From IMG/VR virus record IMGVR_UViG_3300042881_004206: a stretch of DNA of 64,000 nt, one strand, 5' to 3'. A program made the translations under genes and the position numbers. The notes under the pieces were generated by a model, which saw only the letters and a program-made list of their open reading frames with translations, was not told the DNA's origin and ran no database searches. The DNA comes from a virus (lineage: Duplodnaviria; Caudoviricetes). Below, piece by piece: positions 1 through 50,195 of this stretch. Every line of letters starts with the position of its first letter. Position 1 is the stretch's first letter.

Positions 1-430
1 TGAAAACAGTTGATCCTTTTGAATCGTAAAAACTCACATAAGCGTTAAGATAGTCAATTCGACCATCGTCCCAACCATTACCGTTTTTCGCTGTGAAACT
101 AAAATTATAACCATTTACACGCAATCCTGTTCCTGAATTTGGAAGAAGACTGGATATAAGTTGCATCTGATATAAATTTGTAGTACCATATGAAAAATTT
201 ATATTATTGCCTGGTCGGACAATAGCATTTGGACCACAATATCCGGGATCACCCGAAGCCCAACAAGTCAAACTATCCTGATAAACACCATTGACCCATG
301 GTGTTGTGTTTGTACCAGAAACAGTCGGTTGCACCACATTTCCTGTGGTGTAAACTTGAGTTGGATCAAGTGTTTGAGCGGTTGCAATTGATGATAAAAA
401 AACCATCAAAGCAAAAAAGAGATTTTTCAT
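1..430 (-). CDS. Secreted/exported protein, N-terminal part (runs off window start)
   Basis: Manual translation from ATG 430, which overlaps the upstream TGA: MKNLFFALMVFLSSIATAQTLDPTQVYTTGNVVQPTVSGTNTTPWVNGVYQDSLTCWASGDPG...; signal-peptide-like N-terminus; not in ORF track because truncated. Confidence 0.75.
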   Translation of the reverse strand, partial: MKNLFFALMVFLSSIATAQTLDPTQVYTTGNVVQPTVSGTNTTPWVNGVYQDSLTCWASGDPGYCGPNAIVRPGNNINFSYGTTNLYQMQLISSLLPNSGTGLRVNGYNFSFTAKNGNGWDDGRIDYLNAYVSFYDSKGSTVF

Positions 431-1689
431 TCTCTTATAGCTTTAGGAATTTTGTCCGGATTTGCAGCCCAAGCGACTTTAGCTTGTTCACCAATCAAAC
501 CTTCATATGGGCAAGGTGTACCGGCTGCCATCATGGCATCAAATACTCTACGATCCTGACACATCGTGGCAACTGCGGCAACTTTCATACCCATGTCAAA
601 TAGTGTTTTGGAAAGTTTTAATCTTTCGCAATTTTGGTCACGCATTGTACCACCAAAACTTAAACCAAAAACTTGAGTTTGTGTAGCACCAGAAACACCA
701 GTCACGCAAAGGTCTGAGCCCATACTCATCATTGCAGGTGCGATTGCTGTTGGTGGAGGTTGAACAACTTTTTGTGTGACGGTACTTTCATTGATATTGC
801 GATTGGTCATTTCACCTGACTGAATGTTTTGATTAACATTTGTTGCAGTTGATGTGTTATTATTTTGGTTTACATTTGTACTTGTTGTTTGATTTACATT
901 ATTATTGTTATAAGTCATTGTTCCAGAATTGATATTCTGATTGACATTTGTACTTTGACTATTGTTTACATTTAAATTTGTATTTCTACTTGTGCTTGTT
1001 GAAGTATTAACATTATTATTGTTATTTGTCATTGTACCAGTATTTTCATTTCTATTAATGTTGGTGCTTGTGCTGACATTATTGTTGTTATATGTCATTG
1101 TACCAGAATTAATGTTATGGTTCGTATTTGTTGAAGTGCTGGTACTTACATTGTTGTTATTGAATGTTTGTGTGCCACTATTAATATTATAATTTGTATT
1201 TGAATTTGTTGATGAGGATGTATTGGTGTTTACATTGTTGTTATTGTTTGTAACTGTTCCACTTTGTACATTATTGTTTGTGTAAGTAACAGAACCGCTC
1301 ATCACATTGTTGTTATTGTTTGTGATAGTGCCATTTGTGGTATTTTGATTGATGTTTGTAACTGTTCCACTTTGCACATTGTTATTATTGTTATTGTAAG
1401 TCACAGTACCGCTGTTCACATTATTGTTTGTGTTGACATTGGTGCTGTTGACGGTACTTGTACTGGTGGTCGTGCTTGTACTGGTACTATTATTGTTTGT
1501 GGTAACGGTACTTGTGCTATTTGAAGTGGAGTTGGTATCCACTAATGTCTTTGAATCATAACTACCTTGATTAATAGGTGTAGTTGTGCTTGTTGTTGTT
1601 CCACCGGTTGTACTCTGCGTACTTGTTGTTTGCGCAAATGCTGTACCCATAACAAAAAGTAAGGCTAAAGCCAACTTTTTGAAGTTCAT
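427..1689 (-). CDS. Secreted Asn/Thr-rich repeat protein with Cys-containing C-terminal domain
   Basis: ORF 427..1833; start re-called at ATG 1689 (AAGGA RBS; MNFKKLALALLFVMGTAFA signal peptide); about 280 aa of N/T/S repeats; C-terminal CVTGVSG..CERLKLSK..MCQD..GTPCP domain. Confidence 0.8.
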   Translation of the reverse strand: MNFKKLALALLFVMGTAFAQTTSTQSTTGGTTTSTTTPINQGSYDSKTLVDTNSTSNSTSTVTTNNNSTSTSTTTSTSTVNSTNVNTNNNVNSGTVTYNNNNNNVQSGTVTNINQNTTNGTITNNNNNVMSGSVTYTNNNVQSGTVTNNNNNVNTNTSSSTNSNTNYNINSGTQTFNNNNVSTSTSTNTNHNINSGTMTYNNNNVSTSTNINRNENTGTMTNNNNNVNTSTSTSRNTNLNVNNSQSTNVNQNINSGTMTYNNNNVNQTTSTNVNQNNNTSTATNVNQNIQSGEMTNRNINESTVTQKVVQPPPTAIAPAMMSMGSDLCVTGVSGATQTQVFGLSFGGTMRDQNCERLKLSKTLFDMGMKVAAVATMCQDRRVFDAMMAAGTPCPYEGLIGEQAKVAWAANPDKIPKAIRE

Positions 1690-1747
1690 TTGATTTCCTT
1701 TTAATTTTGTTATGAAAAAAAACATTGGTAAATGTTTCAGGGACATA

Positions 1748-1776
1748 TTGCATGTCCGAACAAAATCATATATAAT
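1748..1776 (+). promoter_or_regulatory. sigma70-type promoter for tRNA and replication operon
   Basis: TTGCAT-17 nt-TATAAT; the -35 lies inside the inverted repeat GGACAT-N5-ATGTCC (1741-1757). Confidence 0.6.
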
Positions 1777-1787
1777 TGTATCACTCT

Positions 1788-1795
1788 TATTTATG
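1788..1795 (-). promoter_or_regulatory. T4-type late promoter (CATAAATA)
   Basis: Minus-strand CATAAATA about 100 nt upstream of ATG 1689; T4 late consensus is TATAAATA. Confidence 0.5.
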
Positions 1796-1872
1796 CGGGT
1801 AGACAGGTGAAGGGGCCACCAACAGCCTTCCAAGCTGAAGATCGCGGAGTTCGACTCTCCCTACCCGCTCCA
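1795..1872 (+). tRNA. tRNA-Gly(UCC) with encoded CCA and atypical 8/4 acceptor/T-arm
   Basis: GCGGGTAG/CTACCCGC acceptor stem, GGTG/CACC D stem, CAGC-CTTCCAA-GCTG anticodon arm, GGAG-TTCGACT-CTCC T arm, discriminator T, 3' CCA. Confidence 0.9.
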
Positions 1873-1893: not shown

Positions 1894-2199
1894 ATGGATA
1901 TAATTGTATTGAAATTAATTACCGGCGAAGAAATCCTAGGTGAAATAGAATCCGAATCGGAAACCGAATTTGTCTTAGTCAATCCAGTAGGAATTGCAGT
2001 TGTTCGTGGCCAGGACGGTGCTCCCAATGTAGGTTTTGCACCATTTCCTATTCATGCCGAACAAAAAAGAGGTTCGACTATTGCCTTGGTGAAGAAACAT
2101 ATTGTATACTCATATGTTCCTGCCGAAGATTTTATCAATAATTATAATCAAATATTCGGTTCTGGAATTATTGTTCCCAACAAACAGCTTATTACATGA
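1894..2199 (+). CDS. Conserved hypothetical protein upstream of polymerase (possible Sm-like beta fold)
   Basis: KLITGEE..G..LVNP motif; stop overlaps polymerase start. Confidence 0.6.
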   Translation: MDIIVLKLITGEEILGEIESESETEFVLVNPVGIAVVRGQDGAPNVGFAPFPIHAEQKRGSTIALVKKHIVYSYVPAEDFINNYNQIFGSGIIVPNKQLIT

Positions 2200-4742
2200 G
2201 TTTTTATACAAACGTACAATCTATCGGTGGTAAAATCCTTTACCGTGGTGTAATCGGCGGTAAAAGAGTCAAACAAAAAATTGATTATACACCATCACTT
2301 TACATTCCCTCCAAGAAAGTAACCAATTACAAAACACTGGATGGAAAATATCTCGACAAAAAAGTTTTCGATAGTATTCATGAAGCGAGAGAATACACCA
2401 AACAATTTGATGGTTTAGTGAATGCCACCAAAATCTATGGTAATACCAGATATGAATATGCTTTCATAGCAGATCAACACCCCGAAATGGTCGAGTGGGA
2501 CCAAGATTTGATTTCTATTGCCGTAGTTGATATTGAAGTTGGTTCCGAAAATGGTTTTCCAGATCCTTACGAAGCAAACGAACCAATCACCGCAATCACC
2601 ATAACCTATCTGAATGGGTATACTTATGTCTATGGATGTGGTGATTACAACAACTATGATGATAATGTTTCTTATGTGAAATGTAAGGACGAATGGACAC
2701 TTTGCAAGAGATTCCTTGAAGATTGGATGAACAAATGTCCAGATGTTATCACCGGTTGGAACACCAAGTTTTTTGATATTCCATATCTAATTAATCGATT
2801 CAACCGCATTCTCGGTGAAGATTATGCAAAGAAACTTTCTCCTTGGAATATGATCTCTGAGAGAAATACTGTAATCAATGGTCGACAAATGAAAGCATAT
2901 GAAATTGTCGGTGTTGGTTCTCTTGATTACATTGAACTCTACAAATGGTATGCGCCAGGTGGTAAATCACAAGAATCTTATCGATTGGATAATATTGCAA
3001 ATGTCGAGCTCGGTGAAGGTAAGATTTCGTATGATGAATATGACAACCTGCATCAACTTTACAAACTGAACTATCAGAAATTTATTGAGTATAACATCAA
3101 AGACGTACAACTGATTCTAAAACTTGAAGATAAACTGAAGTTGTTAGAGTTGGCCTTAACTCTTGCGTATGATACCAAGTCAAATTATGAAGACGTTTTT
3201 GCGCAAACAAGAATGTGGGATTCTCTTACATATTCCTATTTGTTGCAACAAAATATTGTTGTTCCTCCGAAAGAAGTAAAAGAGAAAGACTCTGCTTTTG
3301 AAGGTGCTTATGTTAAAGTACCACAAGTTGGAATGCATGAATGGGTGGCCTCTTTCGATCTGAACAGTCTGTATCCGCATCTCATGATGCAGTATAATAT
3401 TTCTCCAGAAACTCTGATCGAACCGGAAAATTATACAGAAGAAATGCGAAATATCATTTCTCAAGGTATCAGTGTTGATAAGTTGTTGGCCAAAAAAGCT
3501 GATTTGTCAAAATTGACTGGTGCAACAATTACACCAAATGGACAATTCTTTCGCACAGATATTCAAGGTTTCTTACCCAAGATGTTGGAAGAAATGTATG
3601 AAGATCGCAAGAAATTCAAGAAGATGATGATTTCTGCAAAACAGGAATATCAGAAAGAAAAAGATCCAAAAGTAAGAAATGAACTTGAAAAGAAGATTGC
3701 ACGATATAATAATCTTCAGTTAGCAAAAAAAGTTTCATTGAACTCTGCTTATGGTGCTCTTGGTTCACAGTATTTCCGATTTTATGATTTGCGAATGGCT
3801 CTTGGTGTAACAACTGCTGGTCAATTGTCAATTCGTTGGATTGAAGCGAAGATTAATGATTATATGAACAAACTTCTGAAGACGGAAGCTGATTATGTTA
3901 TTGCATCGGACACCGATTCAATTTATCTCCGTTTGGGTGATCTGGTCAACAAAGTTTACGGATCAGATGGAAAAGTTTCGATGCCCAAACAAAAAGTTAT
4001 TGACTTCATGGATCGTGTTTGTGAGGACAAGATTCAACCATATATCGATAATTCATACGAAGAATTGGCAAATTATGTTAATGCATATGACCAGAAGATG
4101 CAAATGAAACGAGAAGCCCTGGCCGACAAAGGAGTTTGGACAGCCAAGAAAAGATATATTCTGAATGTATACAACAATGAAGGTGTCGCATACGATGAAC
4201 CATACATGAAAGTTATGGGTCTAGAAATGATTAAGTCTTCCACACCTTCTGCAATTCGCGAAAAAATGAGTCAAACAATTGAATTGATGATGCGTGGTAC
4301 CGAATCTGAAGTACAAGACTTTATTCAGAAATTCAAGGAAGAATTTAAAAGATTACCACCAGAAGAAATTTCTTTTCCTCGTGGTTTGAATGGACTCAAA
4401 ACTTATTCAGATTCGGTAAATCTATACACCAAAGGAACACCGATTCATGTGAAGGGTGCAATTCTATATAATCATTATCTGAAAGAGATGAAATTAACAA
4501 AGAAATATCCTCTCATTCAAGAAGGTGAAAAAATCAAATTCACATATCTAAAAATGCCCAATCATTTCAAAGATATGGTAATTTCTTATCCTGGTAGATT
4601 ACCAAAAGAATTTGGTCTTGACAAATATATTGATTATGATGTACAATTTGAAAAATCGTTTTTGGAACCGATTAGAGTAATTCTTGATTGTATGAATTGG
4701 TCTGCGGAGAAAACAAATTCGATTGAAGATTTCTTTTCATAA
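2196..4742 (+). CDS. 43: DNA polymerase family B (T4 gp43-like)
   Basis: Exo I DIEV, region II SFDLNSLYP, region III KVSLNSAYG, region I ASDTDS, KKRY. Confidence 0.98.
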   Translation: MSFYTNVQSIGGKILYRGVIGGKRVKQKIDYTPSLYIPSKKVTNYKTLDGKYLDKKVFDSIHEAREYTKQFDGLVNATKIYGNTRYEYAFIADQHPEMVEWDQDLISIAVVDIEVGSENGFPDPYEANEPITAITITYLNGYTYVYGCGDYNNYDDNVSYVKCKDEWTLCKRFLEDWMNKCPDVITGWNTKFFDIPYLINRFNRILGEDYAKKLSPWNMISERNTVINGRQMKAYEIVGVGSLDYIELYKWYAPGGKSQESYRLDNIANVELGEGKISYDEYDNLHQLYKLNYQKFIEYNIKDVQLILKLEDKLKLLELALTLAYDTKSNYEDVFAQTRMWDSLTYSYLLQQNIVVPPKEVKEKDSAFEGAYVKVPQVGMHEWVASFDLNSLYPHLMMQYNISPETLIEPENYTEEMRNIISQGISVDKLLAKKADLSKLTGATITPNGQFFRTDIQGFLPKMLEEMYEDRKKFKKMMISAKQEYQKEKDPKVRNELEKKIARYNNLQLAKKVSLNSAYGALGSQYFRFYDLRMALGVTTAGQLSIRWIEAKINDYMNKLLKTEADYVIASDTDSIYLRLGDLVNKVYGSDGKVSMPKQKVIDFMDRVCEDKIQPYIDNSYEELANYVNAYDQKMQMKREALADKGVWTAKKRYILNVYNNEGVAYDEPYMKVMGLEMIKSSTPSAIREKMSQTIELMMRGTESEVQDFIQKFKEEFKRLPPEEISFPRGLNGLKTYSDSVNLYTKGTPIHVKGAILYNHYLKEMKLTKKYPLIQEGEKIKFTYLKMPNHFKDMVISYPGRLPKEFGLDKYIDYDVQFEKSFLEPIRVILDCMNWSAEKTNSIEDFFS

Positions 4743-49745: not shown

Positions 49746-50195
49746 ATGGATTTTAAAGATTTTACTGTTAATTTTCATAATGTGGCCACAAATAAGGAGT
49801 TTTCTTCTGTCACTCGGTTATTGGCAACCGATTTGATGCGTAATCCATATTTGAGTGTTGGGGATTTTTTCAAGAACCTTTCCGATTCTGATTTACAGAT
49901 TCTATCCGATATAGCTGATACAGTTTTCACACACTTTAGTGATGAAGAATCACAAGCAGACAATAAAGCAAATAACAATATCAATGAATGTGTTATGTTG
50001 ACAATGCTATTGTCTGGTGCTGAAGGATTGGATTCGATTCCTGATATTGATATTATTCGAAAAAGAGTATCACAATTGATTATGTTTGTCAGTTGTGAAT
50101 CGTTGCACCGAAAAGGATTGGTTAAACTGCACCACCACAATCTTTCTTTTGGTGAAGATTCTGACGATAAGATTGTAGTCGAAAGAATCGTTTAA
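49746..50195 (+). CDS. Hypothetical protein
   Basis: GGAGG RBS before ATG 49746. Confidence 0.65.
   Translation: MDFKDFTVNFHNVATNKEFSSVTRLLATDLMRNPYLSVGDFFKNLSDSDLQILSDIADTVFTHFSDEESQADNKANNNINECVMLTMLLSGAEGLDSIPDIDIIRKRVSQLIMFVSCESLHRKGLVKLHHHNLSFGEDSDDKIVVERIV

What the first reader, a model, noticed from the sequence alone, without database searches (positions are those of the whole stretch)
1795..1872. tRNA-Gly(UCC) with a non-canonical 8/4 acceptor/T-stem fold
Seen: G1795-G1802 pair perfectly with C1868-C1861 (8 bp) and the T stem is 4 bp (GGAG/CTCC). A canonical 7/5 fold would need a C:C mismatch at 49:65 and a G instead of the invariant U8. It also has a 3-nt ACA connector, an AAGGGGC D loop, an A:A mismatch atop the anticodon stem and a 7-nt variable region. 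Gly identity elements (G1-C72, C2-G71, G3-C70, U73, CC anticodon bases) and CCA are intact. Established: 8/4 tRNAs are described for Ser and His in some bacteria and phages; I do not know a Gly example. Inference: a functional but reshaped tRNA that may escape host tRNA-targeting defences, or a tRNA mimic or decoy.
Basis: partly seen in the sequence, partly recalled or inferred. Interest (0 to 1): 0.8.

Follow-up and report, generated by a model that had tools for sequence, protein, structure and literature searches.

The report
Phage glycine tRNA with 8/4 fold
This is a real glycine tRNA gene of a freshwater T4-like phage whose acceptor stem is one base pair longer and T stem one pair shorter than normal; it belongs to a widespread family found almost only in phages, and I found no description of a glycine tRNA with this shape.

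Summary
Window 1795-1872 folds as a tRNA-Gly(UCC) with an 8-bp acceptor stem, a 4-bp T stem, a 3-nt connector, a 7-nt variable region and an encoded CCA.

It is not a decaying copy. Pattern scans of IMG/VR recovered 84 phage loci holding 41 distinct sequences with the same architecture.
- The 8th acceptor pair covaries: G:C 23, A:U 12, U:A 6 of 42 sequences.
- The canonical alternative, a 49:65 pair, forms in 0 of 42.
- The Gly identity set (G1:C72, C2:G71, G3:C70, U73, C35, C36) is near-invariant, whereas acceptor pairs 4-8 and the D stem vary with compensation.

The family looks phage-restricted. Only 5 contigs matched among about 185,000 prokaryote species genomes, and at least 3 of those carry phage genes. 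Members sit mostly in phage tRNA clusters, usually alongside a canonical tRNA-Gly(GCC) and almost never alongside a canonical tRNA-Gly(UCC).

In related phages a canonical tRNA-Gly(UCC) occupies exactly this site, upstream of the DNA-polymerase operon.

The most likely function is a working elongator tRNA that reads GGA and GGG. Why it has the 8/4 shape (defence evasion or altered decoding) is untested. 8/4 tRNAs are published for Ser, His, Cys and Sec, not Gly, so I file this as a new variant of a known kind.

The parts
1795..1872 (+). 8/4 tRNA-Gly(UCC) gene, 78 nt, with encoded CCA
   Evidence: Sequence; ARAGORN -ps; 101.7 bits to the family model R1, which includes this sequence; family covariation
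1795..1802 (+). Acceptor stem 5' strand, 8 nt, pairs with 1861-1868
   Evidence: 8/8 Watson-Crick pairs here. In the family the 8th pair is G:C 53, A:U 12, U:A 6 of 71 contexts and G:C 23, A:U 12, U:A 6 of 42 distinct sequences
1803..1805 (+). 3-nt connector ACA in place of U8-N9
   Evidence: The family uses ACA, ATA, ACAA, ACTA or ATTG, always 3-4 nt
1806..1820 (+). D arm: 4-bp stem GGTG/CACC and loop AAGGGGC
   Evidence: All four D-stem pairs show changes on both sides; the loop is AAGGGGC in 68 of 71 contexts
1822..1838 (+). Anticodon arm; loop CUUCCAA, anticodon UCC at 1829-1831; A1822:A1838 mismatch at 27:43
   Evidence: 27:43 is G.A in 56, A.A in 10, G:C in 4 and A.C in 1 of 71 contexts. 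No family member has another base at position 34 or 35
1839..1845 (+). 7-nt variable region AGAUCGC
   Evidence: The family has 6-7 nt, or 11-12 nt with a GAAA mini-hairpin. The last nucleotide covaries with D-loop nucleotide 6: G:C 39, A:U 3
1846..1860 (+). T arm: 4-bp stem GGAG/CUCC and loop UUCGACU
   Evidence: The stem is invariant in 70 of 71 contexts and GGGG/CCCC in one. The scan that found these did not constrain the T arm
1861..1872 (+). Acceptor 3' strand (1861-1868), discriminator U1869, CCA 1870-1872
   Evidence: the 3' tail is UCCA in 69 of 71 contexts
1771..1776 (+). Perfect TATAAT hexamer 18 nt upstream of the tRNA; possible promoter for the tRNA plus the downstream operon (inferred)
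   Evidence: Sequence. The consensus scan did not call a promoter here because the -35 is weak. Relatives have TTGACA-N17-TATAAT at the equivalent place
1894..2199 (+). Downstream gene, 101 aa, phrog_527, function unknown
   Evidence: No terminator-like site between the tRNA and this gene. A metatranscriptome contig with no mismatch spans 1843-1926
2196..4742 (+). T4-type (gp43-like) DNA polymerase
   Evidence: phrog_262, 1059 bits; about 50% identical to the polymerases of T4-like cyanophages
427..1689 (-). Divergent upstream gene, 420 aa, phrog_20531, function unknown

Best explanation
Window 1795-1872 is a functional phage-encoded elongator tRNA-Gly(UCC). It has a conserved non-canonical architecture: an 8-bp acceptor stem stacked on a 4-bp T stem, which still makes a 12-bp acceptor branch. 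The connector is lengthened to 3-4 nt and the variable region to 6-7 nt, which would compensate geometrically for the junction being shifted by one pair. Inferred mechanism: it is transcribed early, together with the replication operon that follows it, and its 5' end is cut by host RNase P, which measures the 12-bp branch. Its CCA is encoded. It would be charged by host GlyRS through the retained identity set (G1:C72, C2:G71, G3:C70, U73, C35, C36), carried by EF-Tu and used on the ribosome to read GGA (and GGG). GGA is the second most used glycine codon of this A+T-rich phage, while the phage's canonical tRNA-Gly(GCC) covers GGU and GGC. Shown here: the fold is under selection, the family exists and is phage-borne, and it occupies the Gly(UCC) slot. 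Inferred: charging, EF-Tu use and decoding.
For: Fold. In an alignment of 42 distinct sequences, 94% of cells pair and 13 of 21 pairs change on both sides, with 0 of 500 shuffles reaching that. The 8th acceptor pair is G:C 23, A:U 12, U:A 6. The rival 49:65 pair forms in 0 of 42. The scan that gathered these was anchored on the D loop and anticodon loop only, so the acceptor and T stems were unconstrained.

Identity. GCG/CGC, U73 and CCA are near-invariant while pairs 4-8 vary. No member has a non-U34 or non-C35 anticodon.

Role.
- 73 of 84 loci have other tRNA genes within 1.5 kb.
- A canonical Gly(GCC) co-occurs in at least 29 loci; a canonical Gly(UCC) co-occurs in only 2.
- This phage's own genome (92% complete) has 22 other tRNA genes by ARAGORN, including Gly(GCC), but no canonical Gly(UCC).
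- Nine related phages carry a canonical 74-nt tRNA-Gly(UCC) at the same position, about 18 nt upstream of the phrog_527/DNA-polymerase genes.
- Phage codon use per 1000 codons: GGT 41, GGA 20, GGC 12, GGG 1.7.

Specificity. Among about 1,000 ARAGORN-called tRNAs in these loci, only Gly scores as strictly 8/4.

Expression (weak). In a freshwater metatranscriptome, contigs cover 1793-1872 (depth 13.4, ending at the CCA) and 1843-1926 (no mismatch, depth 10), above the depth of neighbouring bins.

EF-Tu. The pair that lies where 51:63 would be is an invariant G:C, the tight-binding type reported for tRNA-Gly bodies (PMC7826273).
Against: There is no direct evidence of aminoacylation, EF-Tu binding or decoding. 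The RNA evidence consists of assembled contigs from an RNA library that may contain DNA, so it shows neither ends nor expression level. The element fails ARAGORN's default thresholds and the Rfam gathering score, as do 7 of 8 relatives tested against Rfam. U8 is absent, 27:43 is a conserved purine-purine mismatch, and the D loop is unusual, so tertiary folding could differ from a normal L-shape. In this phage the gene lies about 5 kb from the tRNA cluster, as the leader of an mRNA, so a second role in mRNA processing cannot be excluded.
Confidence: 0.78

Rival explanations
1. Counter-defence shape (compatible with the tRNA being functional). The 8/4 architecture was selected because it lets the phage's Gly(UCC) tRNA escape a host factor that recognises the core or elbow geometry of canonical tRNA-Gly, such as a tRNA-directed nuclease or toxin, or a modification enzyme that needs U8. 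Meanwhile it stays usable by GlyRS, EF-Tu and the ribosome.
For: The family appears phage-restricted: 5 contigs among about 185,000 species genomes, at least 3 of them with phage genes. It is spread across phages whose flanking DNA ranges from 32 to 63% G+C. It usually stands in for the canonical Gly(UCC) rather than accompanying it. There is a precedent for phage tRNAs that evade tRNA-targeting immunity (PARIS and retron systems, cited in the bioRxiv preprint 10.1101/2024.07.05.602228). tRNA-Gly is a known target of toxins, for example FaRel2 (same preprint).
Against: No defence system was examined or linked to this family. The one tRNA-Gly-directed toxin whose determinants I could read (FaRel2: pairs 1, 2, 4 and 5 of the acceptor stem) would still recognise this tRNA, because GCGGG/CCCGC is retained. 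The anticodon loop is the ordinary CUUCCAA.
Confidence: 0.2
2. Decoding tuner. The reshaped acceptor/T branch, the 27:43 mismatch (an anticodon stem of effectively 4 bp) and C32 change EF-Tu affinity or anticodon-arm flexibility. The UCC anticodon then reads a different set of GGN codons than a canonical tRNA-Gly(UCC) does, for example by superwobble.
For: T-stem pairs 49:65 and 50:64 and C32 control superwobble in tRNA-Gly(UCC) (PMC10853795). tRNAs with 4-bp anticodon stems have been proposed to decode more codons (PMC13092985). The 27:43 mismatch is conserved as G.A or A.A in 66 of 71 contexts.
Against: These phages usually also carry tRNA-Gly(GCC), so there is no evident need to read all four codons. 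Nothing here measures decoding.
Confidence: 0.12
3. Non-ribosomal glycine donor. The tRNA is charged with glycine but is used by a tRNA-dependent transferase, as the staphylococcal cell-wall tRNA-Gly(UCC) species are used by Fem enzymes or as Gly-tRNA is used by phage Mu Mom to modify DNA.
For: Both precedents use Gly-tRNA-Gly: PMC7826273 and PMC13219725. The staphylococcal species also carry UCC and have unusual D and T arms.
Against: The T-stem pairs are invariant G:C, not the weak A:U set that keeps the staphylococcal species away from EF-Tu, and the D loop keeps its run of Gs. The tRNA sits in ordinary tRNA clusters and in the Gly(UCC) slot. I did not look for a partner transferase gene near the tRNA, so its absence is not shown.
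Confidence: 0.05
4. tRNA-like mRNA leader. In this phage the element serves mainly as an RNase P/RNase E processing signal or stabiliser at the 5' end of the replication-operon mRNA, not as a tRNA.
For: It lies 22 nt upstream of the first gene of the operon with no terminator between them, and an RNA contig bridges the tRNA and that gene.
Against: The same sequence family lies inside tRNA clusters in 73 of 84 loci. None of the other 84 loci has this operon next to it. Selection keeps the anticodon, the Gly identity set and the CCA, which a processing signal would not need.
Confidence: 0.05
5. Decaying pseudogene or chance cloverleaf.
For: It scores below the ARAGORN default and Rfam thresholds, and the folding-energy z-score is only -1.45.
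Against: There are 41 distinct homologues with compensatory changes in all helices, and no 49:65 pair in any of them. An identical or near-identical sequence occurs in many unrelated genomic contexts.
Confidence: 0.02

Closest known systems
(8/4) tRNA-His and (8/4) tRNA-Ser of alpha-proteobacterial phages and some bacteria (Mukai et al. 2017, NAR 45:2776, PMC5389517)
   Same: A 12-bp acceptor branch split 8/4 instead of 7/5; found in phage tRNA gene clusters. tRNA-His is likewise a short-variable-arm tRNA.
   Different: Different amino-acid identity: Gly, with a UCC anticodon and GCG/CGC plus U73. In the loci examined here, Gly alone scored as strictly 8/4. No Gly example appears in the text of that paper; its supplementary figures could not be read.
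Canonical phage tRNA-Gly(UCC), e.g. the 74-nt gene at the same site in related phages (L067, L072, L078, L090, L094)
   Same: Same anticodon, same first five acceptor pairs (GCGGG/CCCGC), U73 and encoded CCA. Same genomic position, upstream of the phrog_527 and DNA-polymerase genes.
   Different: The canonical genes have a 7-bp acceptor stem, U8, a 5-bp T stem, a paired 27:43, U32 and a 4-nt variable loop. blastn finds no similarity between them and the window's tRNA.
allo-tRNAs (8/4 and 9/3) and SelC* tRNA-Cys
   Same: [quoted passage not shown]
   Different: Those have a long variable arm, a tRNA-Sec-like D arm (long stem, tetraloop), a longer anticodon stem, and Ser or Cys identity. None of that is present here.
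Bacterial tRNA-Sec (8/5)
   Same: An 8-bp acceptor stem.
   Different: tRNA-Sec has a 13-bp branch, a UCA anticodon, a long variable arm, and uses SelB rather than EF-Tu.
Non-proteogenic tRNA-Gly(UCC) of Staphylococcus (cell-wall synthesis; PMC7826273)
   Same: A UCC glycine tRNA whose D and T arms depart from the norm while the GlyRS identity elements are kept.
   Different: Those keep a 7/5 fold, have weak A:U pairs at 49:65, 50:64 and 51:63 to avoid EF-Tu, and are confined to staphylococci. This family has G:C pairs there and is phage-borne.

Membership tests
tRNA (Rfam RF00005) | Score at or above the 29-bit gathering threshold | tested here: not met
   27.5 bits, with a shifted acceptor stem and mismatches. 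Only 1 of 8 family members tested passes (32.1 bits), while about 60 neighbouring tRNAs score 33-75 bits, most of them 48-75. The shortfall reflects the 8/4 geometry, which the model does not allow.
tRNA (general cloverleaf) | Four arms; 7-nt anticodon loop with U33 and a purine at 37; T loop UUCGANU; G-rich D loop; 3' NCCA | tested here: met
   All helices are supported by compensatory changes.
Bacterial tRNA-Gly (GlyRS identity set) | G1:C72, C2:G71, G3:C70, U73 | tested here: met
   Present in the window. GCG/CGC in 69 of 71 contexts and the UCCA tail in 69 of 71.
Bacterial tRNA-Gly (GlyRS identity set) | C35 and C36 in the anticodon | tested here: met
   Anticodon UCC at 1829-1831. Scans for family members with another base at position 34 or 35 gave 0 hits.
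Bacterial tRNA-Gly (GlyRS identity set) | Aminoacylation with glycine | not testable with these tools
   Needs a GlyRS charging assay.
(8/4) tRNAs sensu Mukai et al. 2017 | 8-bp acceptor stem | tested here: met
   8/8 pairs in the window. The 8th pair is G:C 23, A:U 12, U:A 6 of 42; the single exception is a row that MAFFT misaligned.
(8/4) tRNAs sensu Mukai et al. 2017 | 4-bp T stem, no 49:65 pair, 12-bp acceptor branch in all | tested here: met
   T stem GGAG/CUCC; the candidate 49:65 pair forms in 0 of 42 sequences.
allo-tRNA | Long variable arm, tRNA-Sec-like D arm, Ser identity | tested here: not met
   7-nt variable region, 4-bp D stem with a 7-nt loop, Gly identity set.
tRNA-Sec (RF01852) | 13-bp acceptor branch, UCA anticodon, long variable arm | tested here: not met
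   12-bp branch and UCC anticodon; no tRNA-Sec row among the matches listed for this region even at E up to 10 (one lower-scoring overlapping match from the same clan was not shown).
Staphylococcal non-proteogenic tRNA-Gly | Weak EF-Tu-binding T-stem pairs (A49-U65, U50-A64, A51-U63) | tested here: not met
   Invariant G:C, G:C at the two pairs that lie where 50:64 and 51:63 would be (compared with PMC7826273).

The most novel reading that the evidence does not exclude
The 8/4 fold is a counter-defence or orthogonality device that works at the level of tRNA architecture. By moving the acceptor/T junction by one pair and doing without U8, phages keep a GGA-reading tRNA that GlyRS, EF-Tu and the ribosome still accept. 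A host nuclease, toxin or modification enzyme aimed at canonical tRNA-Gly would no longer recognise it. This would be a route of escape distinct from the anticodon-loop changes known so far.
Probability: 0.2. Interest if true: 0.85.

Novelty: new variant of a known kind. Interest (0 to 1): 0.62.

Why it matters
It adds glycine to the short list of amino acids (Ser, His, Cys, Sec) served by natural 8/4 tRNAs. The shape is not a rare oddity here: it is a common, apparently phage-specific solution found in dozens of unrelated phage genomes.

Standard annotation misses most copies. Seven of 8 tested fall below the Rfam cut-off, and ARAGORN at default settings finds 16 of 41. Phage tRNA repertoires and codon-usage analyses that rely on these tools are therefore incomplete.

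The family offers a natural pair for experiment, since 8/4 and 7/5 tRNA-Gly(UCC) occupy the same locus in sister phages. That pair could show what the 7/5 rule is for. The family also provides a compact class I scaffold of possible use as an orthogonal tRNA.

Tried and rejected
- blastn of the window's tRNA against 80 syntenic loci of related phages gave no hit. Those loci hold either a canonical tRNA-Gly(UCC) or no tRNA at that site.
- blastn against 50,697 GenBank phage records found only one full-length relative. It is an unannotated copy in Ralstonia jumbo phage RsoM2USA, with a U.U mismatch at acceptor pair 7 and no encoded CCA.
- Hits in Burkholderia phage Mica and in Rhizobium phages cover only the 3' half and lie next to integrase genes (likely attP sites); they are unrelated.
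- The tRNA-Gly of Streptomyces phage Karimac is canonical 7/5. The 'tRNA-Undet' of Pseudomonas phage hairong is 7/5 with an odd D arm.
- Scans for the same scaffold with other anticodons gave 0 hits, so there is no suppressor or recoding story.
- Escape from FaRel2 was considered and dropped, because its acceptor-stem determinants are retained.
- The promoter scan did not call a promoter upstream, so the TATAAT at 1771-1776 is only an inference.
- The folding-energy z-score is not significant.
- No earlier finding of this scan matched the sequence.
- The supplementary files of Mukai et al. 2017 are not held, so I cannot exclude that an 8/4 tRNA-Gly is drawn in one of their supplementary cluster figures.
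- Metatranscriptome coverage outside 1736-2539 was sparse and is not interpreted.

Full report
**What is there.** Window 1795-1872 reads GCGGGTAG-ACA-GGTG-AAGGGGC-CACC-A-ACAGC-CTTCCAA-GCTGA-AGATCGC-GGAG-TTCGACT-CTCC-CTACCCGC-T-CCA.
- an 8-bp perfect acceptor helix (1795-1802 with 1861-1868);
- a 4-bp T stem;
- a 3-nt connector;
- a 7-nt D loop, AAGGGGC;
- an A:A mismatch at 27:43;
- a 7-nt variable region;
- anticodon UCC (1829-1831);
- discriminator U and an encoded CCA.

A 7/5 reading would need a C1845:C1861 pair and a G at position 8.

**How the standard tools score it.** ARAGORN at default thresholds reports no tRNA in the whole window. With thresholds relaxed it draws exactly the 8/4 cloverleaf as tRNA-Gly(tcc). 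The Rfam tRNA model gives 27.5 bits against a 29-bit cut-off, and only by sliding the acceptor stem two bases and accepting mismatches. RNAfold's minimum-energy structure is the 8/4 cloverleaf, but its z-score is -1.45, so energy alone proves nothing. The element is 61.5% G+C in a 37% G+C genome.

**Genomic setting.** The window belongs to a 156.6-kb IMG/VR virus record estimated 92% complete.
- The genes that follow the tRNA are a 101-aa protein of unknown function (phrog_527), a T4-type DNA polymerase, a UvsX-like recombinase and a DnaB-like helicase.
- The polymerase is about 50% identical to those of T4-like cyanophages, so no close isolate exists.
- Near-identical DNA occurs in lake and freshwater metagenomes from 14 studies.
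- The phage has a cluster of 22 ARAGORN-called tRNA genes about 5 kb away, outside the window. The cluster includes a canonical tRNA-Gly(GCC) but no canonical tRNA-Gly(UCC).
- Glycine codon use per 1000 codons is GGT 41, GGA 20, GGC 12, GGG 1.7, so a UCC tRNA would serve the second commonest glycine codon.

**The same site in related phages.** I fetched 80 loci that encode a relative of the phrog_527 protein (71-86% identical).
- Most have only a sigma-70-type promoter and a conserved TTATTTAT motif upstream of that gene.
- Nine (L067, L072, L074, L078, L080, L083, L090, L094, L097) carry a canonical 74-nt tRNA-Gly(UCC) about 18 nt upstream of the gene, in the position the 8/4 gene occupies here. 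These have a 7-bp acceptor stem, U8 and a 5-bp T stem.
- They share with the window's tRNA only GCGGG...CCCGCUCCA, and blastn finds no similarity.

So the site is a tRNA-Gly(UCC) slot. In this phage it is filled by a different, non-canonical gene.

**The family.** An exact-pattern scan of IMG/VR was anchored only on the D loop, A26 and the anticodon loop, so the acceptor and T stems were unconstrained. After discarding 58 chance matches, it left 71 context-distinct occurrences. Together with a scan anchored on the T arm, this gives 84 loci and 41 distinct tRNA sequences.

In the 71 contexts:
- the 8th acceptor pair is always Watson-Crick: G:C 53, A:U 12, U:A 6;
- the nucleotides that would form 49:65 are C/C 52, C/U 10, C/A 6, U/U 2 and U/C 1, never a standard pair.

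On a MAFFT alignment of the 42 distinct sequences (41 plus the window):
- the 8/4 structure pairs 94.3% of cells, 13 of 21 pairs change on both sides, and no shuffle of 500 reaches any of the five measures;
- sliding the 3' partners by 1-3 columns drops pairing to 35-54%;
- the 8th pair is G:C 23, A:U 12, U:A 6, plus one row that MAFFT misaligned;
- in the 7/5 alternative the extra T-stem pair forms in 0 of 42.

**What is conserved and what varies.**
- GCG/CGC at pairs 1-3, U73 and CCA are near-invariant, while acceptor pairs 4-8 and all four D-stem pairs vary with compensation. This is what selection for GlyRS recognition plus helix integrity would produce.
- The T stem GGAG/CUCC (70 of 71), the T loop UUCGACU (69 of 71) and the D loop AAGGGGC (68 of 71) are almost fixed.
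- The connector is always 3-4 nt and the variable region 6-7 nt, or 11-12 nt with a small GAAA hairpin. Each is one or two nucleotides longer than in canonical class I tRNAs. I read this as geometric compensation for the shifted helix junction (inference).
- The 27:43 position is a purine-purine mismatch in 66 of 71 contexts.
- D-loop nucleotide 6 and the last variable-region nucleotide covary (G:C 39, A:U 3, no exception). This suggests a Levitt-like tertiary pair, but the three variant sequences may be one lineage.
- Scans for the same scaffold with a base other than U at position 34, or other than C at position 35, found nothing. The scaffold is dedicated to UCC.

**Where the family lives.**
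- 73 of the 84 loci have other tRNA genes within 1.5 kb, and some loci hold 36-43 tRNA genes.
- A canonical tRNA-Gly(GCC) lies in the same (partial) locus in at least 29 cases. A canonical tRNA-Gly(UCC) does so in only 2.
- Among about 1,000 ARAGORN-called tRNAs in these loci, the strict 8/4 signature (12/12 pairs as 8/4, fewer as 7/5) occurs for 44 tRNA-Gly and for no other amino acid.
- Flanking DNA ranges from 32 to 63% G+C, and one identical 78-nt sequence occurs in 23 different contexts. The gene is therefore spread over very different phages.
- A strict pattern scan of one genome for each of about 185,000 prokaryote species found 5 contigs, all from metagenome-assembled genomes. L302 and L304 encode a terminase, with a portal or baseplate protein, and L303 encodes a phage-type primosomal protein. 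L304 and L305 hold tRNA clusters. The family therefore looks phage-restricted, with the caveat that the pattern demanded an exact D loop and T arm.
- Among 50,697 GenBank phage records, the only full-length relative is an unannotated copy in Ralstonia jumbo phage RsoM2USA. It lies 145 nt downstream of a canonical tRNA-Gly(UCC), has a U.U mismatch at pair 7 and lacks an encoded CCA.

**Detection by standard tools.** ARAGORN at default settings finds 16 of the 41 variants. Of 8 members tested against Rfam, only one passes the tRNA cut-off (32.1 bits), while neighbouring tRNAs in the same loci mostly score 48-75 bits. Many copies will therefore be missing from phage annotations.

**Expression.** No terminator-like site separates the tRNA from the next gene. 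In a freshwater metatranscriptome (run X19), three contigs are relevant:
- an 84-nt contig with no mismatch spans 1843-1926, from the tRNA into the gene;
- a 145-nt contig from a related phage covers 1793-1872 at depth 13.4, is preceded by the 3' end of another tRNA, and stops at the CCA;
- the bin 1736-1869 is the deepest of that run.

These are assembled contigs from a library that may contain DNA, so this is only a weak hint of transcription. A perfect TATAAT lies at 1771-1776, but the consensus scan did not call a promoter there.

**Most likely function.** The retained GlyRS identity set, the preserved 12-bp acceptor branch, the strong G:C pairs where EF-Tu reads the T stem (PMC7826273) and the dedicated UCC anticodon all point one way. 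So do the occupation of the Gly(UCC) slot in phage tRNA sets, the replacement of a canonical gene at the same locus, and the phage's heavy use of GGA. The element is a working elongator tRNA-Gly that reads GGA and GGG. Charging, EF-Tu use and decoding are inferred, not shown.

**Why 8/4?** This is open.
- *Defence evasion.* The phage-only distribution makes it attractive, and phage tRNAs that escape tRNA-targeting immunity are a precedent. I found no link to any defence system. The one tRNA-Gly-directed toxin whose determinants I could check, FaRel2, should still recognise this acceptor stem.
- *Change in decoding.* T-stem pairs and C32 govern superwobble in tRNA-Gly(UCC) (PMC10853795), and 4-bp anticodon stems may widen decoding (PMC13092985). 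However, the phages usually also carry tRNA-Gly(GCC).
- *Non-ribosomal glycine donor.* The precedents are the Fem enzymes and Mom. The tight-type T-stem pairs and the tRNA-cluster setting argue against it.

**Comparison with what is known.** Mukai et al. 2017 (PMC5389517) described 8/4 and 9/3 allo-tRNAs. [quoted passage not shown] Glycine is not among them, and three full-text searches found no description of an 8/4 tRNA-Gly. Their supplementary figures could not be read. The element meets the defining features of an 8/4 tRNA and of a bacterial-type tRNA-Gly. It does not meet those of allo-tRNA, tRNA-Sec or the staphylococcal non-proteogenic tRNA-Gly. I file it as a new variant of a known kind: the first 8/4 glycine tRNA family, abundant and apparently phage-specific.

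Noticed in passing
L120, L122, L126, L129, L130, L149, L159, L167, L170, L173, L174, L182, L206, L224 (IMG/VR loci): A second non-canonical phage tRNA-Gly(UCC) group of 74-76 nt. It has the same anticodon loop and the same T-arm type (GGAG/CUCC or GGGG/CCCC) as the 8/4 family, but a 7-bp acceptor stem, then a conserved A opposite C at the junction (or U49 opposite C65), a 4-bp T stem and a short AAGGU D loop. It may be a sister form of the 8/4 family.
   Followed up: partly
Own genome G000:C1:120676-120765 (minus strand, outside the window); also L304:5841-5933: A 90-93-nt tRNA with anticodon UAU, a long variable arm, a 6-bp anticodon stem and a short D loop sits in the phage tRNA cluster. ARAGORN calls it tRNA-Ile(tat), but it is absent from the Rfam tRNA hits. 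It recalls the allo-tRNA(UAU) group of Mukai et al. 2017.
   Followed up: partly
L107:2013-2104: In a 206-kb phage contig that also carries an 8/4 tRNA-Gly, a 92-nt tRNA-Ser(UGA)-like gene passes the Rfam tRNA-Sec cut-off (48.9 bits against 47). It has a 4-bp T stem plus a G.A. It may be an (8/4)-type tRNA-Ser.
   Followed up: no
Own genome G000:C1:48402-48775 (outside the window); L132:3701-4110: A permuted tmRNA gene (tag ANDEKFALAA) lies in the phage genome. A similar permuted tmRNA lies in another phage contig that carries an 8/4 tRNA-Gly.
   Followed up: no
window 1741-1757 and 1787-1794: A palindrome, GGACAT-ATTGC-ATGTCC, sits where a -35 element would be, upstream of the TATAAT at 1771-1776. 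Several relatives have a similar GGAC...GTCC palindrome there. The motif TTATTTAT directly precedes the tRNA and is conserved in the 5' leader of the phrog_527 gene in most related phages, with or without a tRNA.
   Followed up: no
L225:1486-1562 (MG752970.1, about 50,071-50,147): Ralstonia jumbo phage RsoM2USA holds an unannotated 8/4-type tRNA-Gly(UCC) 145 nt downstream of a tRNA-Gly(UCC)-like sequence that is also unannotated in that stretch. It is the only cultured phage found to carry a family member.
   Followed up: partly
L308:99-169 (Pseudomonas phage hairong, OM223115.1 222-292): The gene annotated 'tRNA-Undet(nnn)' reads as a 7/5 tRNA-Gly(UCC) with a D arm reduced to a GUAC/GUAC stem and a GGG loop.
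   Followed up: no
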